Shown: positions 448-50,900 of the stretch, one piece after another | Numbering within the stretch: the stretch's first letter is position 1 | Layout of the letters: every line of letters starts with the position of its first letter | DNA from: a phage | Reading direction: 5' to 3' (one strand) | Assembly (NCBI GenBank): GCA_012401045.1 | Contig: GCA_012401045.1_4704.1 | Length of the DNA stretch: 64,000 bases | The notes under the pieces: model-generated | What the model saw: only the letters and a program-made list of their open reading frames with translations | Told to the model about the DNA's origin: nothing | The model's database searches: none | Program-made: the position numbers and the translations under genes

Positions 448-897
448 TTAAGCGTAATTCATTCCAACCAATCTATCGTAGTTAGGCATATGCCCTAACT
501 CCAGTTCGACGGGCATGGATACATTGGTGCGTGGTGCGTAAAATGTTCGCGTATGCATATCGATATACCCACAGTCCAAATAAACAATATCGGACAACTC
601 CGTCGGATGTTTAGGTGCGGGAATCTTTAGTCGATTATAACACTCAAGCTGCCACCAGGCATGAAAAAAGTTATTGTAGGCGTACGATTTACTGTTGGCA
701 ATTTTAAGACCGTAGATCACCCATAACGCCGCCATGAAGTTGGTCGCATTAATTCGCATCGGTTGTTCATTATTGAGCATGTACGTGTAGGTAAACAACG
801 GTGTGTTACCATCACCGAAACGTCCGACCAAGGTATTGTTCGTGTGTTCGACCTCAAAGGAAAAATGCTGGCTGCTATTGCCATCAAAATGGATCAT
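448..897 (-). CDS. hypothetical protein (149 aa)
   Basis: ORF track; ATG start; 13-nt spacing to downstream gene. Confidence 0.5.
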   Translation of the reverse strand: MIHFDGNSSQHFSFEVEHTNNTLVGRFGDGNTPLFTYTYMLNNEQPMRINATNFMAALWVIYGLKIANSKSYAYNNFFHAWWQLECYNRLKIPAPKHPTELSDIVYLDCGYIDMHTRTFYAPRTNVSMPVELELGHMPNYDRLVGMNYA

Positions 898-948
898 TCC
901 GTTCTCCTCAAGCTTTTCATTTCATAGAGTGGTGGAAATTCGTAGAAA

Positions 949-997
949 GTTACAAAAATAAAAAAGAATGGGCAGCCCCTCCCCACCCGAAGGTAGG
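949..997 (-). terminator. intrinsic terminator candidate
   Basis: Minus RNA hairpin CCCUACC-UUCG-GGUGGGG followed by U-rich run; downstream of CDS 1016..1480. Confidence 0.5.
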
Positions 998-1015
998 GAG
1001 AGACCGCAAATATAC

Positions 1016-1480
1016 TTAAACCAAAGCTGCGATAACGTCGTTAACATTACGGCCTCGCAACTCTGCCGCTAAACGAATAACTTCATCCAGGGAACGGTTT
1101 GTACGAATCTTGGCCACTTTCCAATTTTCAGGATACTGTTCGAAGTTAAGCAACCAAGTCATTACCTTTGCTTGTTCCATACCGTTGAGTTTGATTGTCG
1201 TGCGCGGATTGGCTTTGAACCACTTCTTGCTCAGCTGCGCCATACGGCGAACAGGGTAAGCGTAAGCGCGAGTCCAGTCTTTGGACAGATTGTCGAGTAA
1301 TTCACAGTAGCTGCTGTCGTAGTCTTTATTGATACGACGTAATAACCAGTTGGCGGTCATCTGATAAAGTTTATCATCTTCACGTAACCGCATACCTGCT
1401 ACTGCTAAATAAATGATAAGACCTGCGCCCAGGATGAGAGACAGGATAAACAGAATTTGGGTTTCTTGTGCTAAAGTCAT
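1016..1480 (-). CDS. hypothetical membrane protein (154 aa)
   Basis: ORF track; N-terminal hydrophobic helix ILFILSLILGAGLIIYLAVAGM; followed by hairpin plus U-run. Confidence 0.55.
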   Translation of the reverse strand: MTLAQETQILFILSLILGAGLIIYLAVAGMRLREDDKLYQMTANWLLRRINKDYDSSYCELLDNLSKDWTRAYAYPVRRMAQLSKKWFKANPRTTIKLNGMEQAKVMTWLLNFEQYPENWKVAKIRTNRSLDEVIRLAAELRGRNVNDVIAALV

Positions 1481-1599
1481 TTTACTATCCTCGGATTTCG
1501 TTAGGATTTAATTTCCAATATAAGGGCAATGTGATATGCCTTATACAGTCGATTGATGTTGTACATCACTTAAGTAATATAGCCGTGAAAAATGTTGGA

Positions 1600-2436
1600 T
1601 TAACGTGTTCTCCTATCACGATGCGTATACGACTGAAGACCGATGTCCATATGCGGTAACGTCAGCGTCTGCCAGATCTGTCGTGCGTAACGATCGAGCG
1701 TATGATCATCAGTAACACAATCGACGGGTTCGATGAGGTGAGTCGTATACTGGCTTTTCTCAGAGAAAGGTTCGATGTTAGCTGTATCGCCTAATCCGCT
1801 TTTCACCGTGAAGACAAGACGTGTGACGATCATCGCCTTATGCTGCTGTTCATTATAACGAAGGCTGCGGTATACGGCATAGCTTCCTCCTTTTAGGCTT
1901 CGGGTATAACGAAGGTCGGAGGTCGTCTCGGAAATCTGATACAGCATCCAGTCCAACGTATCACGCCAGTACGCATCATCCACATCAGGAACCGTAATAC
2001 CGTACCGCGTAGGCAGCAATTCTAAAAGCAATTTATAAAGTCCGCGACGTAAGCCATGCTCTTCTGTTTCCGATAAACCGTTTCCAACATAACGTGAAAT
2101 ACGCGTACGTAAATACGTACGGATGAACATATTCGCCATCAGTGTTTTCACTCTGCTACTGGTATCCTCAAAGCGATCAACGCTGAAACTCGTTTCAATC
2201 AGCCGTCCATTAAAATACAATGCAGCAACATACATCGCGTTATTACTATCACGTTCAATGTTTAAACGACCGCAGATATTAGCCGCATCGTTCATGGTAA
2301 ATTCTAATTTATCGTGTTCGATACGATAGATAATATCCTCTTGGGTTGCCAGGCTCGCAATGCGACGGTAGCCCGGAGAAGTACGTTTTACACTCATAAT
2401 TGTCCTCGTTTTCAATTTTAAGATTGCATGCGGCAT
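1600..2436 (-). CDS. hypothetical protein (278 aa)
   Basis: ORF track; ATG preceded by GGAGG (part of a GC hairpin arm). Confidence 0.6.
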   Translation of the reverse strand: MPHAILKLKTRTIMSVKRTSPGYRRIASLATQEDIIYRIEHDKLEFTMNDAANICGRLNIERDSNNAMYVAALYFNGRLIETSFSVDRFEDTSSRVKTLMANMFIRTYLRTRISRYVGNGLSETEEHGLRRGLYKLLLELLPTRYGITVPDVDDAYWRDTLDWMLYQISETTSDLRYTRSLKGGSYAVYRSLRYNEQQHKAMIVTRLVFTVKSGLGDTANIEPFSEKSQYTTHLIEPVDCVTDDHTLDRYARQIWQTLTLPHMDIGLQSYTHRDRRTR

Positions 2437-2438
2437 AA

Positions 2439-2464
2439 ACCCTCCCCGCCTTATGCAGGGAGGG
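2439..2464 (-). terminator. intercistronic CCCTCCC/GGGAGGG hairpin
   Basis: Between CDS 2480..3118 and 1600..2436; 3' arm overlaps the SD of the downstream gene. Confidence 0.35.
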
Positions 2465-2479
2465 TAGCCATTAAATGGA

Positions 2480-3118
2480 TTAACCTAATTTACCACCGGC
2501 GATGTTGGTGAAATCTTCGCCATCAGGAACTTGCAGTAGGATACGTGCCATGTCCCAGTTGGTTAATGTAATTGCTTTATCATCGATACTCAGTTCTGGT
2601 AGGTCGAGTTCATGATCATCAAACTCGTAGGAAATACTCCACGTTTCATCTGTTTTAGGATCGGTTATCAACACACCGTCTGTTACACGCATGTAGTCCG
2701 GGTGCAGTTCATTACTGAATGTGCTGAACGGATCGGTGTAACATTCAGCATATCCCTCGATCTGCTGACGCTGTGCCTTCGTACGTAATTCAGGGCACGC
2801 CATGATCAGTTGTCGAGATATACCGTTTGCGGCACGGAAGTCTTCCACGGTGTTACATGGCATAACCACATCGTCATGGAAGATGTTCTCCGATTGTCTC
2901 AACAGCGTCTTACGGAGTTCAGCATAGTTTATCTGATTGAATGCGTCGAACGTTGCTAACGATTCAGCGTAAAAATGCTTTACGTGTTCGCTTGCGCCGC
3001 CGAGGCTATTCATCAACTTGTGACCGTACTCCATGAAGCTTTTATCGAGACCGGAGGACATTTCTCCGAACCTCAGTGCACGATAACTGTCTCGTCCACC
3101 TGTAAATATTTGCGCCAT
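2480..3118 (-). CDS. hypothetical protein (212 aa)
   Basis: ORF track; ATG with AAGGAGG SD 7 nt upstream; immediately downstream of the split beta' gene. Confidence 0.6.
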   Translation of the reverse strand: MAQIFTGGRDSYRALRFGEMSSGLDKSFMEYGHKLMNSLGGASEHVKHFYAESLATFDAFNQINYAELRKTLLRQSENIFHDDVVMPCNTVEDFRAANGISRQLIMACPELRTKAQRQQIEGYAECYTDPFSTFSNELHPDYMRVTDGVLITDPKTDETWSISYEFDDHELDLPELSIDDKAITLTNWDMARILLQVPDGEDFTNIAGGKLG

Positions 3119-3133
3119 TACAGGCGTCCTCCT

Positions 3134-5359
3134 TTAGCAATGGTTGTTAGTTGCTTCTATTTCATCAAGATACGGTTCTACGTCATCGCCCTCCACGAAT
3201 TCGTTGAACCAACAGTCAATGGTAGAAATAACCGGCGACTGGTGTTCACATTTCTTAGATACCTTAAAAGGTACGTTATTATCCATCATACCGAGTTCGG
3301 GTCGAAAACGCCCGAAATGTTTCGCAGTCCAAATGTCTGGGACGATATGGTTGTTCATCGTAGTGTTCAGCATGAGTCGCTACCTCATACCCGCAGCTTT
3401 ACCTGCAGCTTCCGGTGTTACCGGAATGTCCAGAATATATCTTATCCATATTCCAAATGGAACGTAGGACTTCCGCGCTGGATCTCGCTTGAGACCACGT
3501 ATTCGTTGAACGTTCTCCTGAACGGAGCTTCGCTGCTGATCGAACATTGTCACGTACGGTAGGCATCCCCGAAGGGATTGTCATTGAAGCCGCGTACATC
3601 CGCTACCTTGTTTCTACCTTATCGGTTCCTCTTACGAGGCGTAGCAGCCTTAGCCCTTCCCAGCAATTCACGGAATCCAAGCTCTTCCTTTCGGAAGGCA
3701 GGGCCTATGATTAAGCGTCACCGTCGCTGTTTATCGACTATATCTTCATCCTCGTTGCGAGGAGTCTCCCGTTTTGGTCTGTGTTTAACAGAGCCTACTC
3801 TACTCGACATCGCGTCTTTCGATAGTCTGTGAGCACACATCTTAACAAACATTCGTGGATTCCTAAACAGGTGAATGTTCTTGTTGAGATGCTTCGCTGC
3901 GGATTATTCCCGTCCTACCTCTTTTACCGTACCCAGTTCATTACGCTGGCCCTCATCTATGTCACCACGATGAGTTGGTGTGTAGTCCGATTACAGAAAC
4001 TTCCCGTCAATTAGAGAGCTTTAACTACGTTCCTGTTACCAGAAACCCGACTCCGACGGCATCAATAAATCAACATAAGTTATTGATTTAATTGAAAAAA
4101 CTGAAGTCGGCATTATAACCTTTGAGGATCATCACGCTTAACCCGATGGTGTTATCCTGCGGATCGCGTTTAACCTTGGTGATTTCAAGACATTGGTTAC
4201 TGCTTCGGTCAAGTGATGGGTTTCGAACAAAGCCGCACACAATCCCATCGAACGGTGTATCAGCAATAAGCTCATCGTGCAGCTCGCTCATCATCGGATG
4301 ATAATTACGGACATGTTCCGCAACGAACGCACGCGCTGCTCTCGGTGAATAACCACGATGGAATAACTTGGATTGGATATGTTCTTTATTGGTTAAAGTA
4401 AATGGTGCGTATGGGAAATGCAGATGATAATAACGATGGTTCGCTGTTATCGAACTGATTACGGTACGCGTGGTGAATGGATGTAATGTACCTAATATGT
4501 TTTTACGTGTAATACCTTTCTTCTTACCGATGAACTCATCGAAAATCGCCGCGTGGTATTGCAGTAGCTTCAATTGCACTTTCGCCATCCAGTTTTCTTT
4601 CTTTCTGGCGCTCAAAGGTGTTGTTGGATGATAGATACTGTTCAACGTACCGATAGCATCGATCGCACCTTCCATTTTGCTATCCGCATAACGACCGGTT
4701 GGCGTATTCTCGATAACGAACATCATGGCCGCAGGAAAGCTGATATACTGACTGAAGAACTTATCACGATGGATACGGATGAATTCTCGTAGCGTGTCAA
4801 CTTTCTCCGTGTTCTTCGGTCCACGTAACGTCGGTCCTTTATACAAGATCTCCATGATGCGATCGAAGTTCTGTATAAAACTATTTACACCGCGACGTAT
4901 CCCGAATACATCGAATTGCTGCTCCAGATAGTTCTTGAGTTCGATGGGTCGTTTTACATTTGGACGGTAACTGGCATCAATGAGCCACGTCATCGTTTCA
5001 AAGCTTTTGATATTCAACTCGCTTGCCAGCACGAGATGGACCAACGGGTTAATGAACGCATCGATTCCTTCAGGAACACGCGCCCAAACCGTCGAACGAA
5101 TCTCCTGTTCTGCCGGGTAGGTCACAACCGTTTTACAGTTTGGACACACCGTGCCGAGTAGCTCACCACGATTGTAGAAACCACAACCACACTGTGGTGT
5201 GATATCCAGCGTATCGCTGGAGTAAACACGGGTGATAAAACTGTTTAATTTCTTCTTCTCTTCGACGACTTTTGTATCGTAATCATTCAACAAAATCGGC
5301 GTAAAAGGAAGTTCTGCGAGCTGTCTATCGAAACTCACGATATCGAGCATGATGGCCAT
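3134..5359 (-). CDS. RNA polymerase beta' subunit, N-terminal fragment (non-virion-type); coding sequence interrupted: exon 1 4104..5359, candidate micro-exon 3714..3726, exon 3 3134..3367 (spliced product about 500 aa)
   Basis: Exon 1 has zinc-ribbon CGCG...CPNC, RKNILG...TRTVIS and ends ...GYNADF (RpoC-like); downstream frame has HIVPDIW...GMMDNNVP; AGGAGA SD before ATG 5359. Confidence 0.7.
3368..3713 (-). ncRNA. group I intron B (candidate, ORF-less, about 346 nt)
   Basis: Minus-strand elements AAUUGCUGGGAAG (P), AUCAGCAGCGAAGC (Q), GUUCAGGAGAAC (R-like), AUAAGAUAUAUUCUGGAC (S); GAAA-capped hairpin; boundaries uncertain. Confidence 0.5.
3714..3726 (-). other. candidate 13-nt micro-exon CGACGGUGACGCU supplying (F)-D-G-D-A of the beta' catalytic loop
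   Basis: Lies between omega-G of intron A and the second intron; in frame with exon 1; P10 pairing CGACGG with guide CCGUCG. Confidence 0.45.
3727..4103 (-). ncRNA. group I intron A (ORF-less, about 377 nt)
   Basis: Minus-strand P AAUUGACGGGAAG, Q AAUCCGCAGC, R CACAGACUA, S AAGAUAUAGUC in canonical order; guide GGAGUCGG pairs exon end CCGACUU with U.G at splice site. Confidence 0.75.
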
Positions 5360-5401
5360 GGGGTATCTCCTACAAATGAAAAAGAACGTTAGGACGTATA
5401 A

Positions 5402-5425
5402 GGGAGGGAGGTTGCCCTCCCTCCC
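5402..5425 (-). terminator. terminator hairpin downstream of chimallin candidate
   Basis: Perfect 10-bp GGGAGGGAGG/CCTCCCTCCC stem with 4-nt loop; U-rich tail on minus strand. Confidence 0.55.
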
Positions 5426-5451
5426 GTCAGATTACATCGAACGTTCTTCCA

Positions 5452-7347
5452 TTAGAACAGATTGAATGCCCCACCCATGTTGTTAACGCCAACATTCGGA
5501 CGATCGCTACGTGCGTAGATGTTACCGGAGATGTTACCCAGACCACGAGCACGTGCTGCCATGTTACCACGAACAGCGGTACCTGCCAGATGCTGGATGT
5601 TCTCAGGACGGATGGTGAAGCCAGCATCAGCAGCGGCTTCGATCAGCGCCTGCAGTGCTAACGGATCGAAGTCGTAACGCATTGCCCAGCCGGTTTGTTC
5701 CCAGCTACCAGACAGAACACGATCGATGATTTCGTGACGAGCGACAACACGCTGAGACATCGTCATATCGGTACGGTCGAAGCTGTCTTCCCAAGCTTCT
5801 ACGGTATCCGGGTTAGTGATGTTCATCATGTACAGATCGTCCATATCACGAATATCGTGACGGTGACCATCCTGGTGGTTGTAGTGACCCAGCGGGATAC
5901 GGTTACCGGTAGCGTAGACCAGCGGTTGGCCGTATTGATATTTCTTGCTGAAGCAACCCAGGGTAACATCATCGAACGCACGGAAGAGGGCTTTGTAACC
6001 TTCGGAGATTTCACGGACTTCACCTTCAACTTTGCCCGTATAGATCTTCTCAGCCGCCGGGATCATACGCAGCAGCCAGCTGTACTCACCTTCTTCCGGT
6101 ACGTCGATAGAAATCAGCAGAGACGGATACAGTACCTGTTGCAGGAACTTGTAAATCTGCTCGTTGGTTTGAGTAGACAGATCCAGCGGTGCGGTAACTT
6201 CCGGATCCAGTACCATCGCCAGAGCACCCGGGTTATGCGGACCAATACCACGGGCAGCGTTGCTGATTAAAGACTGTGCCCACGCCATACCGCTGTTCAG
6301 CGTAGCGATGGTGCCAATCAGACCCAACACGAAAGTGTTCGGTGTGAACGCATCCAGCTCCAGCGGGTAAGCGCTGGTCATCACGTAACGCGGCTGGTAT
6401 TGTACAGTCGGCGGTACCGGATAACCGTTAACCAGAACAGGGCCTTGGTTGAAGGTCGGGTTCTGCGGGCTGTAAGTCAGGTCAATGTAACCGGTGGTGG
6501 CGACCAGACGCTGTTGACTATCGTAATCGCTCATCGCTTGACGGATGCGGTTAGAGATAGTTACAGTGATGTCAGAACGCACAGGGTTACCAACAATATC
6601 GCTGTCCTGCATACCGCTGGTGTTGTACTGAACGCTGCTGATTGGCTGATCGCTTGCCATCATGCCCAGGTTGAACTGCGGCAGACCCAGTTTATCACCG
6701 AGACGGATTTCGATCGCGGTTTGGATTGCGTTATCTGCAGCAGACAGCAGGGTGGTTGCCAGATGCGCAGATTCAGCGGTGATTTCATTGGTCACCACAG
6801 CCAGACCAGCGATACGAACAGTACCGTTAGACTTACCGCCAATAGCTGAGTACATTGCCGCCATGACTTCGTTGATGAACGTACCGTTCAGGTTATCAAC
6901 CCAGGTACGCGGTACCAGAATGTTACCATGCGGACCTTGTTCTTCACGACGCGGCAGCGGAGCCAGACCAGCAACCAGCGGAAGCACATAACCAAAGAAG
7001 TGGTTATGGTCACCAACTTTTGCACCACTCATAACGACCAGGGTCGGATACGGTACGCTGTACTGGTTCGGGTCAACCGCAACAAAGATGAAGTCGTTTT
7101 TGAACTGGGTATCTTCCAGATATTTCTCCATCAGACGACGGAGATTCAGTACCTGCTCGGAGCCAGTATTACGGCTAATACGACGGCTCAGTGTACGGTT
7201 GATCGTACGCATCGTATGAGTTACTTTAGGCTGGCCAGCAAAATCTGCAGCGGTTTCCAGCGCCTCATCAGCACGTTGTGCGGTGCGGGTTTCAGCTGCA
7301 CGAATTTCTACATTATCGTTACCGTTATTACGTACGTCTAAGCCCAT
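5452..7347 (-). CDS. chmA: putative phage-nucleus shell protein (chimallin-like), 631 aa
   Basis: Size and position immediately upstream of beta' gene as I recall for phiKZ gp54/gp55; strong SD AAGAGGAA; TATATTACCT promoter motif 73 nt upstream; no motif-level confirmation. Confidence 0.45.
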   Translation of the reverse strand: MGLDVRNNGNDNVEIRAAETRTAQRADEALETAADFAGQPKVTHTMRTINRTLSRRISRNTGSEQVLNLRRLMEKYLEDTQFKNDFIFVAVDPNQYSVPYPTLVVMSGAKVGDHNHFFGYVLPLVAGLAPLPRREEQGPHGNILVPRTWVDNLNGTFINEVMAAMYSAIGGKSNGTVRIAGLAVVTNEITAESAHLATTLLSAADNAIQTAIEIRLGDKLGLPQFNLGMMASDQPISSVQYNTSGMQDSDIVGNPVRSDITVTISNRIRQAMSDYDSQQRLVATTGYIDLTYSPQNPTFNQGPVLVNGYPVPPTVQYQPRYVMTSAYPLELDAFTPNTFVLGLIGTIATLNSGMAWAQSLISNAARGIGPHNPGALAMVLDPEVTAPLDLSTQTNEQIYKFLQQVLYPSLLISIDVPEEGEYSWLLRMIPAAEKIYTGKVEGEVREISEGYKALFRAFDDVTLGCFSKKYQYGQPLVYATGNRIPLGHYNHQDGHRHDIRDMDDLYMMNITNPDTVEAWEDSFDRTDMTMSQRVVARHEIIDRVLSGSWEQTGWAMRYDFDPLALQALIEAAADAGFTIRPENIQHLAGTAVRGNMAARARGLGNISGNIYARSDRPNVGVNNMGGAFNLF

Positions 7348-7416
7348 TTGGGATTCCTCTTTTCTTAAACTTTATTAAATGACGTCATTGAATCAGCTTC
7401 TACTCGCTCATTCACC

Positions 7417-7428
7417 TAGGTAATATAA
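7417..7428 (-). promoter_or_regulatory. candidate early promoter motif TTATATTACCTA
   Basis: Exact TATATTACCT also at 36381..36392 and 59085..59096, each 70-125 nt upstream of a minus-strand ATG. Confidence 0.5.
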
Positions 7429-7601
7429 CCCTGAAATTTTTTTCAATATTGGTGTAACCACATTGAACGATATAAACCCCTAGGCGAACGCTGCCGAGAA
7501 GCAACATTCTTTCTACATATAATCAGGATATGTCTGTAAACTTTTACTTCTCTTATTGAGAGTAAAGTCATATCCGTTTACTACCTTCTTACGGAGTTCG
7601 T

Positions 7602-8696
7602 ATGTTTCGTGTTTTAAATAACCTCCCGCGAACATCATCGGGTGTGCAGCCCGTCCCTCAGAAAGACTATCTAATACGCGAAGTTCAAAGAAACCTACAG
7701 ACAATCCAGAACCACTATCAAGGTTTTACCTTCGCGGTTCAGAGCGATCACATCCTTGCGTTACTGCTCGCACAGCTCCCTATGAGATACGACATCTCAG
7801 TACAAACTTACTACGATATGATTCTCGATCTTACTCCAGAATTGGGTAATCGTGTTAAGTTGACAACATCAAGATACGCGGGTAAGTTATTCGACGGTGC
7901 TTTCTATCCGGGATTGCACGAAGCTATTATCGCAACCGGTGAAAGTCGTCTTATTTCACGTGACGTTCTTGACAACTGGCGTAATTGGTCGCCGGTTAGA
8001 ATCGTGACACACCCATACGCAAATCTTCGTTACATTCCTCTTCACCGAAAGCAGGTTGAAGAAGGACGAGGTTTTGCGGTCATTATGGTTGATGTACCTT
8101 TATTAGCACTACAGTATCGAATGTGGTCTTTGGTCATGGGTCATAACGTCGACGGTAAATGGGTGGTTAAAGAACCGGTTACAAGCTTCCTTGCGAGTTT
8201 TCCGTTGGTCAACGCATTATATTCACACAACGATGTTGTTATACGCAATCGTTGTTTGTGGGTATCTCCGGCTAAGAATCCACTCAAATCACCAATTTAC
8301 GTTAACGACCTTGATAACGTATTCAGCCAAGTCGTTCTGTCCGTACAGCATCATTTATTACGAAGAAGACGAAGCTACACCGATATGCTTAAACAGATAC
8401 CGAGTTTATACGGGGATCAGTACCAAGCAACCCGAATGGGTTACACCGTCGATCTTCGACAAACCCGATGGGCAAGGGATCTGGGCTGTCTGTCGTTATG
8501 GCAACAACTCGTCACACTACAAAACGTATCTGAAAGCGTCGGGTTCAGCAGCCAGATCGATAACGACCTGTACCGTGCTGCCGACCGTAGTCTAAAAGAA
8601 GGTAACTGGGAGTCCTCTCCGTTACCTGGCGATTTAAGACGTGAAGTTATCGCACAGGTTGCCGACCTCTTAAAAATTCTTCCCGCTGGTGCATAA
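7602..8696 (+). CDS. hypothetical protein (364 aa)
   Basis: ORF track; ATG with ACGGAG SD; lone plus-strand gene ending at a bidirectional hairpin. Confidence 0.6.
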   Translation: MFRVLNNLPRTSSGVQPVPQKDYLIREVQRNLQTIQNHYQGFTFAVQSDHILALLLAQLPMRYDISVQTYYDMILDLTPELGNRVKLTTSRYAGKLFDGAFYPGLHEAIIATGESRLISRDVLDNWRNWSPVRIVTHPYANLRYIPLHRKQVEEGRGFAVIMVDVPLLALQYRMWSLVMGHNVDGKWVVKEPVTSFLASFPLVNALYSHNDVVIRNRCLWVSPAKNPLKSPIYVNDLDNVFSQVVLSVQHHLLRRRRSYTDMLKQIPSLYGDQYQATRMGYTVDLRQTRWARDLGCLSLWQQLVTLQNVSESVGFSSQIDNDLYRAADRSLKEGNWESSPLPGDLRREVIAQVADLLKILPAGA

Positions 8697-8715
8697 TAAC
8701 CTCCCTCCTCCCTTG

Positions 8716-8747
8716 CATCCTCCCAACCCGTAAGGGAAGGGAGGATG
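8716..8747. terminator. bidirectional terminator hairpin
   Basis: CATCCTCCC..CCC-GTAA-GGG..GGGAGGATG between convergent genes 7602..8696 and 8763..10916. Confidence 0.5.
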
Positions 8748-8762
8748 GGGTGGTGGGTTATG

Positions 8763-10916
8763 TTACTCTGCGGTTTCTTGCTTCGGTAAATAACTTGCTG
8801 CGATGTCTTGGGCTAACAATGTATTGTTTTTATTCGAGATGAAAATACCATAACTTTCCATTAACGCGTAATACGAACGCACGAGCGTAGAGATCAATCG
8901 ACGAATATCCATACCTTGAATAAAGATATCAGGAAGCCCGGAGGCTTCGATCACCGGTAATGGTATCGTTAAGTTGCTTATCGTTTTCTTATCGTTACGT
9001 ACAATCCAATCACGGAAACGTTGTTGTAACCCTTTATCCTCCCAGGAATCAATCCAATCGTTAAGAAGCGTTTTGTTCTTCGTCGCCAACGGCACACGAA
9101 CCCCAACATAGGGTGGTTCAGGGCAATGGCCGTACGATTGAGCAAACACCTCTTCCCACATATCGTAAGACTGTTTCGTTACTGCAACATGCGGTTTCAC
9201 TTTAACACGCGTTAAGAAATCAGGATCACCACGTTTCATAGACTCAACGATTTCGTTTTCTAACGAGATAATATCGTCAAGAACCAATCGAATGCTGATC
9301 TTCTCGTTACGTAACAGCTTATCCATGATACCACACATCATGCGTTCAACACGTTTGACGATCATTTTTGGTGCTGACGCATCACGCATAACCGGACCTT
9401 TCAATTCCAGCTTCGGTGGATTGATAGGAACCCCCTCACGCATGGTCATGTAACCGTAATAGTTTTTACCCATCGAGGTTAACGACAGAATCAAGAACAT
9501 ATATTCGTTCTTCATTTCCATCACGTACATATGCTCTTTCGCCACACCGATATTACCAGAACACATCGCCATCAGATGAACCGTAATCTGCGTAACCAGA
9601 TAGATAAGCGTGTTTGCTAAGCGCGTCGAAACTGGATTGATCTCCATATTTCCAAATCGCCACTGAACCCACTCCTGGCAGGTAAACACCGTCGAGTCGG
9701 TATCAGACAACACACCCACTTCACGGATTGCTGATGGGAAAGCATAAACACCAGCCGGTTGGTTCTCGGTACGCCAGAACGCCATAATCAAATCAGCATA
9801 GCTTTGAATACGCTGTAGCATTAATTTTGTCGTTGCTGCAGTAAGACGATAACCAAGCTCATTTCCTTTTTCTAGCGCTACGTAAATCGCTTCCCCATTC
9901 AAGAACTCCGTACATTGTGCTGTAATCCAAGCGACCGTGTTGTTATCCATGGAAGCAATAATGGCTTTAGCCTCTTCCATCGTTTCAACAGGTTCGGATG
10001 CCAGCTCGCATAACGAATCAAGAAAATCTCGAACAAATTCAGGATTAAGCTCACGTAACGAGTACAGGTTATTGCTGTACATGTAGCAGGCACGTTCCAA
10101 CGGTGTTAAACCAGTAATTAACTCCCGGATAGTCAGTTCTTTCTCTGGGTCGAAAGTATATCGATGCAAGCATTTCGATACGTTAGCCCAAACCTCTTCC
10201 GGCGTAGGGTAATGTAGTTTGTATTTTACCATTACCTGTTCAATGGCTTTACGATCGCTGTTGCGGACAATACTCACGATGTTTTCAATTGCGATATCAC
10301 AATCGTAATAATGGAAATTGCCCGCAAGGAAGCGTTCGTTGTTCGCATTGGCTGAACCTGAAGCACAGCGACACGTTGTCGTTAAACTTGGATGCGCAAT
10401 TGGATTATAAAAAGGGTTAAACTTGGACGCCTGGGTTCCTGACAAACTGTTGTTATCTAACTTGGTGTTGGTTTGTCGTTTATCGTGTAACTCAGCTTCA
10501 TCTTTACGTCCGTGTGCTTGCGCTATCGACATTTGTTTCTTTTGTTTCTTACGCAACTTACCGTTTTCAACCGCAAAGTCGCTTAGCACACTGGAACGTG
10601 TTTCACGTGGATAACAGTTAGCCCACACCGGCGTGATAATTAAATTATTTTCTTTAATATCATTGAAGTATTGGCTGAACTTGATGACTTCTTTTTCTCG
10701 ATTTCCTTCGGTGCGCTGTGTTAATACAAGGCAGTCGGGATCAACCATCCCGTATTTTCCACCAGGACGAACCGTATCAAGGACAAACTGCAACGCTTCC
10801 TGCTGTGATATCCCACGCATGCGCATTAAGAACAGGGTATAATCCTGTACCGCTTCTTTGGTCATATCCAACGTACGGCCATATCCGTTTTCATCGTAAA
10901 AGAACGGATTTTCCAT
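8763..10916 (-). CDS. hypothetical protein (717 aa)
   Basis: ORF track; ATG with GGAGGA SD; no motif recognised. Confidence 0.65.
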   Translation of the reverse strand: MENPFFYDENGYGRTLDMTKEAVQDYTLFLMRMRGISQQEALQFVLDTVRPGGKYGMVDPDCLVLTQRTEGNREKEVIKFSQYFNDIKENNLIITPVWANCYPRETRSSVLSDFAVENGKLRKKQKKQMSIAQAHGRKDEAELHDKRQTNTKLDNNSLSGTQASKFNPFYNPIAHPSLTTTCRCASGSANANNERFLAGNFHYYDCDIAIENIVSIVRNSDRKAIEQVMVKYKLHYPTPEEVWANVSKCLHRYTFDPEKELTIRELITGLTPLERACYMYSNNLYSLRELNPEFVRDFLDSLCELASEPVETMEEAKAIIASMDNNTVAWITAQCTEFLNGEAIYVALEKGNELGYRLTAATTKLMLQRIQSYADLIMAFWRTENQPAGVYAFPSAIREVGVLSDTDSTVFTCQEWVQWRFGNMEINPVSTRLANTLIYLVTQITVHLMAMCSGNIGVAKEHMYVMEMKNEYMFLILSLTSMGKNYYGYMTMREGVPINPPKLELKGPVMRDASAPKMIVKRVERMMCGIMDKLLRNEKISIRLVLDDIISLENEIVESMKRGDPDFLTRVKVKPHVAVTKQSYDMWEEVFAQSYGHCPEPPYVGVRVPLATKNKTLLNDWIDSWEDKGLQQRFRDWIVRNDKKTISNLTIPLPVIEASGLPDIFIQGMDIRRLISTLVRSYYALMESYGIFISNKNNTLLAQDIAASYLPKQETAE

Positions 10917-47910: not shown

Positions 47911-50900
47911 ATGGTAGATAAAACCCGTGTTGAGGGTGATGATAATTGGGACAACTGGGATGAAGACTTCTCCCTGGATCTCGATTTTAACGAACCCAAA
48001 GACGATCGTAAACCGATAACACGCTTTGCGATAGGAGCGGTTAAAGGTGCTGCTGAGGATCTTACTTCCTACGAAAGAATGAAGGAGATCGCCAGAAACG
48101 CATTGCCTAAGGGCTACAGCGACGGTATGGATCTTATTGATTCCGCCGTCGGATCCACGAAGGAACTATACAATGAAGCCGTTCGTGACGTTCTTCCTAA
48201 GGTCCAAAGCTCAAAACGGTTAGCCGCACAACTGACCAAGAAATACCGTGCGAGCATGCCCGATTTCTCGAAGAAAATTCTTGAGCAATGGGAGCGAGAA
48301 GCCAAGGAAGAAGACGAACGTAAACAAGCTGAAGAAACCCTTCGTCAACGCATGGCGAGCGCGGGGGACGATGAGATCGCCCGCAAGGTTGCCGAGGCAT
48401 TAGGCGAATCAGCAAACCAAAGCGCGGATCAGTTCGCTGAACAGCAAGCGAAAGAGAGTATCCGTGACGATATCGCTGACAAACGGTACGCTGTAACCAA
48501 CAAACAAATGAGTGCGATGCAAGAAGGCGTCGCCAAGATGGTTGGTTTCAACAATGAATTCGCTGCACGCTACATGCGTAAAAGCCTGGAACTGAAATAT
48601 CGTTCCTTAGCGATTCAACGTGCAAGTTTTGATCAGCATAAAAAGTTAGCCGAAGTCTATATCGGTTTATTACAAAACATCCAGAAGAATACGGCTTTAC
48701 CTGATGCGGCTAAAGCAAAAATGTCGGAAGAATTCCGCCGTAGCGCGTACCAACGTTTCTTTGGTAATGCGTTAGATGCGATGAGTTCTTTCGAGAACCG
48801 TTTCTTTGCCGATGTTAAGAAAAACCTTGCCACCAACGCATTAGGTGCTTTAAAAGGCGTCGTGTCTGGCGCAAACGATGCGTTATACGGTTTAAACGAA
48901 GCACGTGACTCGATATCCATGATGGATGGGATGGGGTCAGATGGCGATATTAAGGAAATGCAAGGAAAGATGTTGGGTCAGTTCATTGGCTCAACTGTCG
49001 CACCATGGATGGCTAATAAAGGCAGGATGGCGTTACGCGATTTAGCAAAACGTCACCCCAATGCTAAATTCGCTAGCGCGTTAAAAGCCGTGGATCAAGG
49101 TGGTGAGGCTGCCGCTTACACAACGCGTAATCTCGGTAAACTGCTCCAGGAAGATATTCGTAAGAACGAATTCAATCTTAGCGATCCGTTTTACAAGCAA
49201 TTGTTACGCGGTGCAGGGCGTTGGGCGTTCAACATGGACAGCGGACGTAACTTCCGCGTGATGAACGACACCGCTGAAACACTGGCAGAGCAAACATCTT
49301 TCGACGGTTTAACCTACCGCAGCATCAACGAGGTTATTCCAGGCTTTCTTGCACGCATTCTGAAAAGCAGTGAAGGCATCCGCACCGGAAACAGCGATCC
49401 TGACTACGAGGTCTATGACGGCATCAGCGGGCAATTCGTGTCTCAGCGCACGCGTGAGCAAAGCGTCAACGACACGCTGTTTAACAAACGTTCATTTGGT
49501 TATTACGCCAGCCGTTTCAACGAGGTTATCTCGGTCATCGATCCCGATAAGCAATTATCGGAAAAAGCCAGGAAGGCACTGGCTAAACAGTTGGCACGAG
49601 ATAGCGACGCGAACATCGCATTCGACCCGGCTCGTTTTACGGATGAAAGCAACTTCGATCGTAGTATCGACCGTGACGCTATTAAGGAACTTTCCACGTA
49701 CTTTCGTGACCGTTACGGTATTCGTGACGATATCAACGATAAGGGGGAACGTCATCAGGTCATTGGAAACCGCGGGCAATATTACACGGAACGTAACCGA
49801 GCCGATCTTCGTTACGGTAATCTGAAATCTTTACAACCGGATATCCAGCGTAACCTTAACCTGCTGAAACGTACTGGTGACGTCCAATATCTGGAACGGA
49901 TCGGGATTGTAACGAGAAATAGCGACGGAAGTTACTCGGTTAATCACGATAGGTATTTCTCTGAAATCGATCGGTACATCGACCGGCCGGAGTACGCTGA
50001 CCGCGGCGATGTTAATACGCGATTAACCGCTCAGGAAACAAGAGCGCTGGCGCTGGGTTATCGTGACGCAAAACCATCAGCTGGTGACGTCCAAAATGTC
50101 GGCCTGCCGAACATCGGTCGTAAGGCTGCTGGAACAGTAACCGTTGATGAAAACATCGGCTACGATAAATGGTGGAACGACACAGGTGTTATCACCACAT
50201 CGCTTGAAGAACAGAATCGAGCGTGGCAAGAGCTTTATCTCGAGGCGTTGTCCGAAGCATCCGAACAACGTGTTGAAATGCTTGCGCTGCTGAAAGCCAT
50301 TTCTGAGAAAGACTGGTCTAATAACGTTTCGCTGGATGGTGAAGATGTACCTGAAGGTACAGCACCCATTTCATTTATCGATCGTGCCAAACAAAAACTC
50401 GGCGGACGCAACCTGTTTAAAGGCGGCCGCAATCTCCTCTGGAAAGGAATTAAAAATACCGCACGTTTAGGTGTTAAAGGCGCACGCTGGGGTGCAGAAC
50501 GCACGTTGGGTAGTTTGGTAAATTCTGGCCGACGCATTATCAATTTCAACCGCTTCGTGTTCGGCGCATTATCCAAGGTTGATCAGGTTCCGTTTGACAT
50601 TTACGTTAAAGGGGAATCCCAACCACGCATATTGGTTGCTAAACTTCGTCAGGGGTTATACTTCGATGAAGCGACAGGAAAAGCCGTAAAACGGATGAAG
50701 GATATCAAAGGCCCACTCGTTGATGCGGATGGAAACATCGTAATCAGCAACGAGGATATCGAGAAAGGGTTGGTCACTCGCGCTGGTCGTGCCTTTGAGA
50801 ATTCAGGACTTAAAGCATGGGCACGTGAAGGTCTTAATGGAATAACGACGGCATTAAGTCTCCCACGGATGTTAAAACGCGGTGCGGTTGAGATCTACAA

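What the first reader, a model, noticed from the sequence alone, without database searches (positions are those of the whole stretch)
3368..4103. The two introns are ORF-less and look like diverged duplicates
Neither intron carries an ORF with HNH, GIY-YIG or LAGLIDADG features; the only ORFs inside (66 aa at 3399..3599, 61 aa on the plus strand) look non-coding. Both share CAGCGAAGC after Q, near-identical P (AAUUG[A/C][C/U]GGGAAG) and S (AAGAUAUA[G/U]UC) boxes, with compensatory changes in the P4 pairing (GACGG/CCGC versus GCUGG/CAGC). This suggests duplication of one intron into adjacent positions of the same codon block.
Basis: seen in the sequence. Interest (0 to 1): 0.5.

Follow-up and report, generated by a model that had tools for sequence, protein, structure and literature searches.

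The report
Two unrelated introns splitting polymerase active site
Two real, ORF-less self-splicing group I introns sit 13 bases apart inside the codons for the catalytic NADFDGD motif of a Goslar-like jumbo phage RNA polymerase gene; they belong to different intron lineages and are not duplicates of each other, while related phages carry other intron combinations at the same spot.

Summary
The window is about 98% identical to Escherichia phage Goslar. On the minus strand, the gene for the N-terminal part of the non-virion RNA polymerase beta' subunit (phiKZ gp55 homologue) is interrupted twice. Intron 1 is 4103..3727 (377 nt). A 13-nt micro-exon, CGACGGTGACGCT (3726..3714), encodes (F)DGDA. 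Intron-minus alleles in related metagenomic phages confirm both junctions. Both introns are group I. For intron 1 the evidence is Rfam E=4e-11, canonical P1/P10 pairing, and a guide sequence that covaries with the exon. Intron 2 scores weakly in Rfam, but 29 of 95 modelled pairs covary, including the P3/P7 pseudoknot. Neither carries an endonuclease ORF; Goslar's intron 1 has a 1,065-bp P9 hairpin with an HNH gene that is missing here. The "diverged duplicates" idea fails. The shared boxes are the family consensus, and the two introns show no detectable similarity to each other, whereas each has closer relatives elsewhere. A true paralogue of intron 2 does exist at a neighbouring site in sister phages. 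Four insertion sites lie within about 33 nt, and that block is hypervariable at synonymous positions.

The parts
4104..5359 (-). Exon 1 of the non-virion RNA polymerase beta' N-terminal subunit gene (phiKZ gp55 / 201phi2-1 gp107 homologue). It ends ...GGT TAT AAT GCC GAC TT (..GYNAD + 2 nt of F). The mechanical ORF runs on to 4088 by read-through into intron 1 (SFFN*).
   Evidence: ORF list. tblastn and annotation of homologues. Protein alignment with invariant NADFDGD. Pfam RNA_pol_Rpb1_2 on homologues.
3727..4103 (-). Intron 1, a 377-nt ORF-less group I intron. The 5' splice site follows U4104 and the last base is G3727. It has a P4 with a bulged A, a P6 extension, two hairpins between P7 and P3, a P8, and no P9.
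   Evidence: Rfam 49.3 bits, E=4.4e-11. 97.6% identical to the Goslar feature annotated Intron_gpI. The intron-minus allele L256 reads GATTTCGACGGG. Fold.
4047..4059 (-). Internal guide sequence of intron 1, CCGUCG|GAGUCGG. GAGUCGG (4053..4047) pairs with exon 1 CCGACUU (4110..4104) to form P1, with a U4104-G4053 wobble. CCGUCG (4059..4054) pairs with micro-exon CGACGG (3726..3721) to form P10.
   Evidence: Read from the sequence. The MFE fold recovers P1. The pairing covaries: L010-type alleles have exon CAGAUUU with guide GGAUCUG, two compensatory pairs.
3728..3731 (-). Point where Goslar carries an extra 1,065 bp: a P9 stem made of a 14-bp inverted repeat (TTACGTGCACCGAC ... GTCGGTGCACGTAA) enclosing a 336-aa HNH/NUMOD endonuclease gene. 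The window has only a few bases here (..GATAAACAG).
   Evidence: blastn breakpoints at query 770/773 against L001 2270/3336. Sequences. Pfam HNH_3, NUMOD1 and I-HmuI_NUMOD-like on the Goslar ORF.
3714..3726 (-). 13-nt micro-exon CGACGGTGACGCT. It supplies the third base of the Phe codon plus Asp-Gly-Asp-Ala, that is the DGD of the NADFDGD Mg2+-binding motif.
   Evidence: Translation and alignment to uninterrupted homologues. The same codons are contiguous with their neighbours in alleles L250-252 and L256.
3359..3713 (-). Intron 2, a 355-nt ORF-less group I intron. P1 is GCU|UA with UAGGC (U3714-G3705 wobble). P10 is UCAU (3710..3707) with AUGA (3358..3355). P3 is 3675..3669 with 3477..3471; P4 is 3665..3660 with 3539..3534; P7 is 3504..3500 with 3437..3433. 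It also has a P5 extension, P6, P7.1, P8 and three P9 hairpins (3426..3370). The last base is G3359.
   Evidence: Rfam 20.9 bits, E=0.014. Covariation on 12 sequences: 97.5% of cells paired against about 40% when partners are slid, and 29 of 95 pairs with changes on both sides, including 2 in P7. The unconstrained MFE fold recovers most of the modelled helices, including P1-P5, P6a, P7.1, P8 and P9; the short P6 stem is not recovered and P7 cannot be, being a pseudoknot. Intron-minus alleles L250-252 and L256.
3134..3358 (-). Exon 3, ATG AAC AAC CAT ... (MNNHIVPD...NNHC*), the C-terminal 74 residues of the subunit. The mechanical ORF starts 15 nt further upstream, inside intron 2, at ATG 3373.
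   Evidence: ORF list. Alignment to homologues. The 74-aa and 81-aa (MDFDGDAMNN...) gene calls in related contigs.

Best explanation
The region holds two independent, ORF-less group I self-splicing introns of different lineages. They are inserted 13 nt apart in the codons for the catalytic NADFDGD loop of the phage's non-virion RNA polymerase beta' subunit.

The primary transcript must lose both introns to give one reading frame, ...GYNADF-DGDA-MNNHIVPD.... Each intron should splice by the standard guanosine-initiated two-step transesterification. Intron 1 aligns its exons with one guide sequence: P1 is CCGACUU/GAGUCGG and P10 is CCGUCG/CGACGG. Intron 2 uses a short P1 (GCU|UA with UAGGC) and a short P10 (UCAU/AUGA). 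The 13-nt micro-exon is therefore used at both ends, its first 6 nt in P10 of intron 1 and its last 3 nt in P1 of intron 2.

Shown here: the intron boundaries, the group I folds, the absence of ORFs, and the lack of any special relationship between the two introns. Inferred: that both introns self-splice in vivo. Also inferred: the window's intron 1 most likely descends from a Goslar-like, HNH-bearing mobile intron that lost its whole P9 hairpin together with the endonuclease gene. This locus is one allele of a polymorphic intron hotspot with sites G^Y, NA^DF, F(TT^C) and DA^M in Goslar-like phages.
For: Identity and gene.

Intron 1: Rfam E=4.4e-11, P1/P10 pairing and fold, and exon-guide covariation between the window and the L010-type alleles.

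Intron 2: Rfam E=0.014. Orthologues and paralogues score 26-28 bits. The covariation test gives 29 of 95 pairs with changes on both sides, 0 of 500 shuffles reaching the observed value, and slid controls at about 40% paired.

Junctions: alleles lacking intron 1 and/or intron 2 read ...GATTTCGACGGGGACGCGATGAAC..., and homologues keep DGD + 7 aa + PD.

ORF-less.

Different lineages.

Endonuclease loss: Goslar has a 1,065-bp P9 hairpin with an HNH ORF at this point. Intron C has a short P9 hairpin (CUUACGUGAAAGACGUAAG) and intron 2 has three, whereas the window's intron 1 has none.

Population: six allele types, and none of the 40 cluster members read is an uninterrupted protein of about 497 aa.
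Against: No RNA or protein data were available, so splicing is inferred and not observed.

Neither intron reaches Rfam's gathering score (49.3 and 20.9 against 50).

Intron 1 lacks P9 altogether, which is unusual, and 3' splice-site choice would have to rely on P10 and the terminal G.

P1 of intron 2 has only three exon base pairs.

In one relative (L009) the base before intron B is C, not U, giving a C-G pair where a U-G wobble is expected.

Fold-energy z-scores are modest (-1.86 and -2.54).

The direction of the endonuclease event (loss or gain) is not proven.
Confidence: 0.85

Rival explanations
1. One reading: intron 2 and intron 1 are diverged copies of one intron that duplicated into an adjacent position of the same codon block.
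For: Both belong to the same broad phage-type class of group I introns, with extra hairpins between P7 and P3. They share the P, Q-adjacent and S boxes and lie 13 nt apart. Duplication to a neighbouring site does happen in this system: intron A and intron 2/B are 71-74% identical.
Against: Local alignment z=0.05. Global identity is 54%, the lowest level in the comparison matrix. There is no nhmmer hit between them even at E=1000 with filters off, while intron 1 hits PhiPA3 and many other viral introns and intron 2 hits A/B. The core covariance model of the intron 2 family gives intron 1 only 2.4 bits. The shared boxes are the Rfam consensus and are common in unrelated viral introns. Intron A, the true paralogue of intron 2, lacks CAGCGAAGC. 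The P1, P2, P5, P8 and P9 architectures differ.
Confidence: 0.05
2. The second region is not a working intron. The gene is genuinely split, and the 79-aa ORF (3373..3134) is translated on its own from ATG 3373, as GenBank and RefSeq annotate for Goslar ('hypothetical protein').
For: The Rfam score is low, 20.9 bits. Both Goslar records annotate a separate CDS. The ORF has an ATG with a GAGG a few bases upstream. Jumbo-phage RNA polymerase subunits are commonly split (PMC7598289).
Against: The product would lack DGD, which is invariant in all homologues. The 13-nt DGDA segment is conserved and in frame between two ribozyme folds. Sister phages have the same codons uninterrupted. Helix covariation, including the P3/P7 pseudoknot, shows selection on RNA structure. 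The five extra N-terminal residues of that ORF lie inside the covarying P9b-tail region.
Confidence: 0.03
3. On direction of evolution: the ORF-less intron 1 is the ancestral state, and Goslar's copy was later invaded by a free-standing HNH endonuclease gene.
For: ORF-less intron 1 is the commoner form: the window, L010, L253, L254, L255 and L257, against Goslar alone. The HNH genes of intron 1 (P9 loop) and intron C (5' region, L256) sit at different positions and are only 27% identical, so endonuclease genes do move independently of the ribozymes.
Against: An insertion into a loop should leave the P9 stem in the ORF-less copies, but they have no P9 at all, only 9 nt between P7 and the terminal G. 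Intron C has a short P9 hairpin and intron 2 has three. A perfect 14-bp inverted repeat is a plausible substrate for clean excision of the whole hairpin.
Confidence: 0.3
4. The whole stretch 3359..4103 is a single intron or a twintron, and the 13 nt between the cores is not exon.
For: The two Rfam hits are only about 3 nt apart.
Against: Removing the whole stretch would join ..GACTT to ATGAAC, giving TTA TGA (a stop) and deleting DGD. The 13 nt are exon sequence in intron-minus alleles. Each core has its own P1, P10 and terminal G.
Confidence: 0.02

Closest known systems
Goslar 'Intron_gpI' feature plus HNH endonuclease gp186 (NC_048170 169269..169645 and 168235..169245)
   Same: It is the orthologue of intron 1: same gene, same insertion site (F codon, TT^C), 97.6% identity over the first 373 nt.
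   Different: Goslar's intron is 1,440 nt, with a P9 hairpin enclosing an I-HmuI-like HNH/NUMOD gene, while the window's copy is 377 nt with neither P9 nor an ORF. The Goslar records do not annotate intron 2, the micro-exon or a joined CDS.
PhiPA3 RNA polymerase introns: the gp210 HNH intron in a beta subunit gene (Birkholz et al. 2024, PMC11620839) and the intron in the gp065 region (nvRNAP beta)
   Same: These are group I introns inserted at catalytic residues of chimallivirus multisubunit RNA polymerase genes, with HNH endonucleases in some copies. The gp065-region intron (Rfam 79.2 bits) is detectably similar to intron 1 and shares a GUAGCGA-loop 3' hairpin with intron 2.
   Different: They are in a different subunit and at a different site, single and not tandem. 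gp210 is experimentally shown to act in inter-phage competition, whereas nothing functional is known here and the window's copies have no endonuclease.
Staphylococcus phage Twort orf142 (three group I introns) and nrdE (two introns), Landthaler & Shub 1999 and 2002 (from my own knowledge; the 1999 paper was not in the library)
   Same: Several related group I introns in one essential phage gene. Exon skipping between neighbouring introns is a known risk.
   Different: I could not check the exon sizes there. Here the spacing is 13 nt, and the intron content varies between near-identical phages.
Phage T4 td/nrdB/sunY and SPO1 DNA-polymerase introns (subgroup IA; I-HmuI nicking HNH endonuclease), from my own knowledge
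   Same: The core consensus is the same (AAUUGCGGGAAA, CCGCAGC, AAGAUAUAGUC), as are the extra hairpins between P7 and P3. The endonucleases in Goslar intron 1 and L256 intron C hit the I-HmuI NUMOD-like and HNH_3 Pfam families.
   Different: The host gene differs. The window's introns have no ORF, and intron 1 has no P9.

Membership tests
Group I intron (Rfam RF00028) | Score at or above the curated Rfam gathering threshold (50 bits) | tested here: not met
   Intron 1 scores 49.3 bits (E=4.4e-11) and intron 2 scores 20.9 bits (E=0.014), with nothing in the gathering-mode scan. This is a near miss for intron 1. Intron 2 needs the covariation evidence.
Group I intron (Rfam RF00028) | P1 helix formed by the 5' exon and an internal guide sequence, with a U-G wobble at the 5' splice site | tested here: met
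   Intron 1: CCGACUU/GAGUCGG with U4104-G4053, covarying with the exon in L010-type alleles. Intron 2: GCU|UA with UAGGC and U3714-G3705. The wobble is U-G in 11 of 12 sequences and C-G in one, and the two intron-side pairs covary.
Group I intron (Rfam RF00028) | Conserved core P3-P8 with the P3/P7 pseudoknot | tested here: met
   Intron 2 family: P3 and P4 are invariant and paired. P6, P6a, P7 (three pair types at one position), P7.1 and P8 covary; 97.5% of cells are paired. Intron 1: full-length Rfam alignment with P3, P4, P6 and P8, and complementary GACUA/UAGUC for P7.
Group I intron (Rfam RF00028) | Terminal G at the 3' splice site, and P10 with the 3' exon | tested here: met
   G3727 followed by CGACGG, which pairs with CCGUCG (6 bp). 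G3359 followed by AUGA, which pairs with UCAU (4 bp). Both junctions are fixed by intron-minus alleles.
Group I intron (Rfam RF00028) | Self-splicing with guanosine cofactor | not testable with these tools
   This needs in vitro transcription and splicing, or RNA-seq of infected cells.
Subgroup IA-like phage introns | Extra hairpin(s) (P7.1/P7.2) between the 5' strand of P7 and the 3' strand of P3 | tested here: met
   Intron 2 has one hairpin (3495..3482), all 5 of whose pairs covary. Intron 1 has two predicted hairpins in 3822..3771. No finer subgroup assignment was attempted.
Mobile group I intron with homing endonuclease | An intron-encoded HNH, GIY-YIG or LAGLIDADG endonuclease ORF | tested here: not met
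   There is no ORF with any endonuclease signal in 3359..4103. The orthologue in Goslar does encode an HNH/NUMOD protein.
   there is no similarity above background, and each intron has closer relatives elsewhere.
Twintron / single composite intron | The sequence between the two cores is intron, not exon | tested here: not met
   The 13 nt encode DGDA and are contiguous exon sequence in alleles L250-252 and L256.

The most novel reading that the evidence does not exclude
The 33-nt block encoding GYNADFDGDAM in Goslar-like phages may be a battleground of competing group I introns. At least three ribozyme lineages occupy four insertion sites, in at least six allele combinations, among phages that are otherwise 98-99% identical. 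Endonuclease genes are gained and lost, modules are exchanged between the introns, and synonymous hypervariability is confined to the block. On this reading, ORF-less introns such as the two in this window persist because their presence, together with the recoded flanking codons, destroys the target sites of the HNH endonucleases carried by neighbouring introns of co-infecting phages. They would then act as immunity in the kind of intron-endonuclease interference competition shown for PhiPA3 and phiKZ.
Probability: 0.3. Interest if true: 0.7.

Novelty: new member of a known kind. Interest (0 to 1): 0.45.

Why it matters
Practical point: the Goslar records annotate this essential polymerase subunit as three unrelated genes, and the same fragments appear as separate gene calls in related contigs. 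The true product needs two splicing events and a 13-nt exon that encodes the Mg2+-binding aspartates. Functional work on Goslar by knock-down, mutagenesis or structure determination has to take this into account.

Biological point: the locus is a natural series of intron-plus and intron-minus alleles at four sites a few nucleotides apart, with and without homing endonucleases, in a phage family where an intron endonuclease has already been shown to decide competition between co-infecting phages. The series could be used to test three things: how neighbouring introns interfere with or protect against each other's endonucleases, how introns move to nearby ectopic sites, and whether two ribozymes can share a 13-nt exon without exon skipping.

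Tried and rejected
The Rfam gathering-threshold scan of the whole window gave nothing, and the E-value scan of all 64 kb found no further introns.

Megablast of the region against complete E. coli genomes and against PLSDB plasmids gave no match.

Literature searches found no description of these introns. I looked for Goslar with introns, for Chimalliviridae with introns, and for tandem introns with micro-exons; the Goslar genome paper does not mention introns. The Twort three-intron paper is not held.

A full-length covariance model of intron 2 would exceed the size the tool can calibrate, so I built a trimmed 133-position core model. It is narrow (effective number of sequences 1.22) and splits even intron 2 into two hits because of the large peripheral inserts. 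Its failure to find intron 1 is therefore supporting evidence and not decisive.

The 14- and 16-mer scans of IMG/VR are partly chance hits. Only 62 of 119 and 31 of 120 loci show intron-like similarity.

I could not resolve the 3' end of the third intron in L219, where there is no terminal G if the protein reads DGDEVNF.

I did not build a formal phylogeny of intron cores.
Full report
**What the region is**

The window is a close relative of Escherichia phage vB_EcoM_Goslar, a nucleus-forming jumbo phage. Positions 3000-4500 match Goslar at 98.4% in two pieces that lie 1,065 bp further apart in Goslar. All genes here are on the minus strand.

The 423-aa ORF at 5359..4088 is the N-terminal part of the non-virion RNA polymerase beta' subunit, the homologue of phiKZ gp55 and 201phi2-1 gp107. 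It lies just downstream of the nuclear shell protein gene (5452..7347). The ORF ends ...LKGYNADF and then runs into a stop. Uninterrupted homologues continue NADFDGD-x7-PD. The missing DGD is encoded 377 nt further on, and the rest of the protein (MNNHIVPD...) another 355 nt beyond that.

**Check of the observation**

The two ORFs named exist, but four further small ORFs lie inside the region, including an 84-aa one on the plus strand. None shows any endonuclease signal in Pfam, so the introns are ORF-less.

Rfam finds nothing at gathering threshold. In E-value mode it reports two adjacent full-length Intron_gpI matches: 4094..3727 (49.3 bits, E=4.4e-11) and 3723..3413 (20.9 bits, E=0.014). 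No other intron turns up in the 64 kb.

**Boundaries**

Intron 1 is 4103..3727.
- Exon 1 ends CCGACUU. This pairs with GAGUCGG (4053..4047) and gives the canonical U-G wobble at the 5' splice site.
- Immediately 5' of that, CCGUCG (4059..4054) pairs with the first six bases after G3727, CGACGG. One guide sequence thus forms both P1 and P10.
- In sister phages whose exon reads CAGAUUU, the guide reads GGAUCUG. That is two compensatory pairs.

The micro-exon is 3726..3714, CGACGGTGACGCT, giving (F)DGDA.

Intron 2 is 3713..3359.
- P1 is GCU|UA with UAGGC, including a U-G wobble.
- P10 is UCAU with AUGA, and the last base is G3359.
- Metagenomic sister phages settle the junctions. L250-252 read GACTTTGACGGTGACGCG-ATGAAC and L256 reads GATTTCGACGGGGACGCG-ATGAAC, with no interruption at these two sites.

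**Does the second region fold as a group I core?**

It does. I aligned 12 distinct sequences: seven orthologues of intron 2, the more diverged orthologue B of L009, and four copies of the paralogue A. I then scored a hand-built P1-P9 structure that includes the P3/P7 pseudoknot.

| Measure | Result |
|---|---|
| Cells forming standard pairs | 97.5% |
| Same measure with partners slid 1-3 columns | 37-46% |
| Pairs with changes on both sides | 29 of 95 |
| Shuffles reaching the observed covariation | 0 of 500 |

P7 reads GAAUA/UAUUC, GAGUA/UACUC and GAUCA/UGAUC in the three types. The hairpin between P7 and P3 (P7.1) changes at all five pairs. An unconstrained MFE fold reproduces most of these helices, including P1-P5, P6a, P7.1, P8 and P9.

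**Are the two introns diverged duplicates?**

They are not.
- Local alignment of intron 1 against intron 2 scores the same as against shuffled sequence (z=0.05). blastn recovers only the short core boxes.
- Global identity is 54%. For comparison, intron 1 versus the PhiPA3 gp065-region intron is 62%, intron 2 versus its orthologue B is 85%, and intron 2 versus its paralogue A is 73%.
- nhmmer with all filters off and E up to 1000 returns 228 hits for intron 1 and 275 for intron 2 across 2.1 Mb of fetched viral loci. Neither query ever hits the other intron.
- A covariance model of the intron 2 family core scores intron 2 at 51+15 bits and the intron 1 region at 2.4 bits, below chance hits in coding sequence.
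- The shared boxes are the Rfam consensus and are common in 33 other viral introns (from a biased sample). The real paralogue of intron 2 lacks CAGCGAAGC.
- The peripheries differ. Intron 1 has a 7-8-bp P1 whose loop contains a hairpin, a bulged A in P4, a long P6 arm, two hairpins between P7 and P3, and no P9. Intron 2 has a minimal P1, a branched P5 extension and three P9 hairpins.

**What relatives show**

Goslar-like genomes differ in intron content within the codons for GYNADFDGDAM.

| Genome(s) | Introns present |
|---|---|
| Goslar | intron 1 with HNH gene + intron 2 |
| this window | intron 1 + intron 2, both ORF-less |
| L010, L253, L254, L255, L257 | intron C at GGGT^AT + intron 1 + intron 2, with two 13-nt micro-exons |
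| L256 | intron C carrying a 323-aa HNH gene, and nothing else |
| L009 | intron A at NA^DF + intron B (orthologue of intron 2) |
| L250-252 | intron A only |

Intron A is a genuine paralogue of intron 2. It is inserted after ..ACGCU, the same 5'-exon pentamer as at the intron 2 site, and uses the same GGC guide. Duplication to an adjacent site therefore did occur in this system, but for a different pair of introns. Similarity between A, B and intron 2 is mosaic along their length, which points to exchange between copies.

Among the 40 members read from the 159-member protein cluster (found in Salmonella, E. coli, Shigella and Enterobacter assemblies), the C-termini show read-through into intron A, C or 1. 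None is an uninterrupted protein of about 497 aa. The nearest uninterrupted homologues are 62-65% identical.

The 36-nt block differs at 5-9 positions between allele types, all of them synonymous. In most comparisons the flanks differ by only 1-2%; in the four alleles checked in detail no change lies within about 100 nt upstream.

A more distant jumbo-phage homologue, L219, also has introns at NA^D and within DG^D.

**The endonuclease**

Goslar's intron 1 has, 5 nt downstream of P7, a 14-bp perfect inverted repeat enclosing a 336-aa HNH_3/NUMOD1/I-HmuI-like protein. The window has only a few bases at that point.

Intron C has a short P9 hairpin and intron 2 has three, while ORF-less intron 1 has no P9 at all. 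I therefore favour deletion of the whole hairpin, at roughly 0.6-0.7, over later invasion. The HNH gene of intron C sits in the intron's 5' part and is only 27% identical to Goslar's, so endonuclease genes have also moved independently of the ribozymes.

**Mechanism and status of the steps**

Shown here: the gene identity, the intron limits, the group I architecture and its covariation, the absence of ORFs, the lack of a special relationship between the two introns, and the allele series.

Inferred: both introns self-splice by the guanosine-initiated pathway, and the mRNA is joined as E1-13 nt-E3. Skipping the micro-exon would create a TTA TGA stop.

Against: there are no expression data, both introns fall below Rfam's curated cut-off, P1 of intron 2 is very short, intron 1 has no P9, and the fold z-scores are modest (-1.9 and -2.5).

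**Comparison with what is known, and novelty**

Group I introns at catalytic residues of phage genes are well known, and so are several introns in one gene and cycles of endonuclease gain and loss. An HNH intron in a PhiPA3 polymerase gene has been shown to act in competition between phages (PMC11620839).

Intron 1 is already marked in the Goslar record by an Rfam match. Intron 2, the micro-exon and the joined gene are not annotated there. I found no description of them in the held literature.

I rate this a new member of a known kind. The interesting extension is the dense, polymorphic intron hotspot in the NADFDGD codons.

Noticed in passing
L202 (IMGVR_UViG_3300034096_001425), about 660..8954, minus strand: Seventeen Rfam gathering-level group I intron matches on one strand within about 9 kb, several only 40-110 nt apart. 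This is an extreme tandem intron array in a 39.8-kb viral contig.
   Followed up: no
L219 3440..4600, minus strand: A distant jumbo-phage homologue of the same polymerase subunit has three introns: after ..IQRN, after ..SMNA (the same NA^D site as intron A), and after GACTATGACGGT (DG^D). The third intron appears to end ..AACTAGTA before GACGAAGTT, so there is no terminal G if the protein reads DGDEVNF. This is unresolved.
   Followed up: partly
L001/L002 (Goslar NC_048170 / MK327938) 167622..170910: The public Goslar records annotate exon 1, the HNH gene and exon 3 as three separate CDSs (exon 3 as 'hypothetical protein') and mark only the first 377 nt of intron 1. There is no joined CDS, and intron 2 and the micro-exon are unannotated.
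   Followed up: yes
window 4126..4104 plus 3726..3714 (codons LKGYNADFDGDA), compared with L009, L010 and L250-L256: The 36-nt exon block differs at 5-9 positions between alleles, all synonymous. In most comparisons the flanking 600 nt and 225 nt differ by only about 1-2%; in the four alleles checked in detail there is no difference within about 100 nt upstream. This is a very sharp spike of silent variation at the intron insertion sites.
   Followed up: partly
Protein cluster P0001 (159 members): Goslar-like contigs of 236-248 kb occur in many Salmonella, E. coli, Shigella and Enterobacter assemblies. The commonest exon 1 gene call (434 aa, 84 contigs) reads through into intron A, not intron 1. 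A 422-aa variant (..LKGSTLICNFV) suggests yet another intron form at the G^Y site.
   Followed up: partly
A3 alignment; L009 5252..5976: Similarity among intron A, intron B and the window's intron 2 is mosaic. The 5' 57 columns of A are 86% identical to the window's intron 2 but 63% to B. The P9 region of B is 82% identical to its neighbour A but 74% to its orthologue. This suggests exchange between the paralogous introns.
   Followed up: partly
window 5452..7347, minus strand: The 631-aa ORF directly upstream of the polymerase gene corresponds, by position and length, to the Goslar CDS annotated as nuclear shell protein. This fits a nucleus-forming jumbo phage.
   Followed up: no
window 48642..48747, plus strand: A weak Rfam match to the ribosomal S15 leader (24.2 bits, gathering score 39.5, E=0.21). 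It is probably chance.
   Followed up: no
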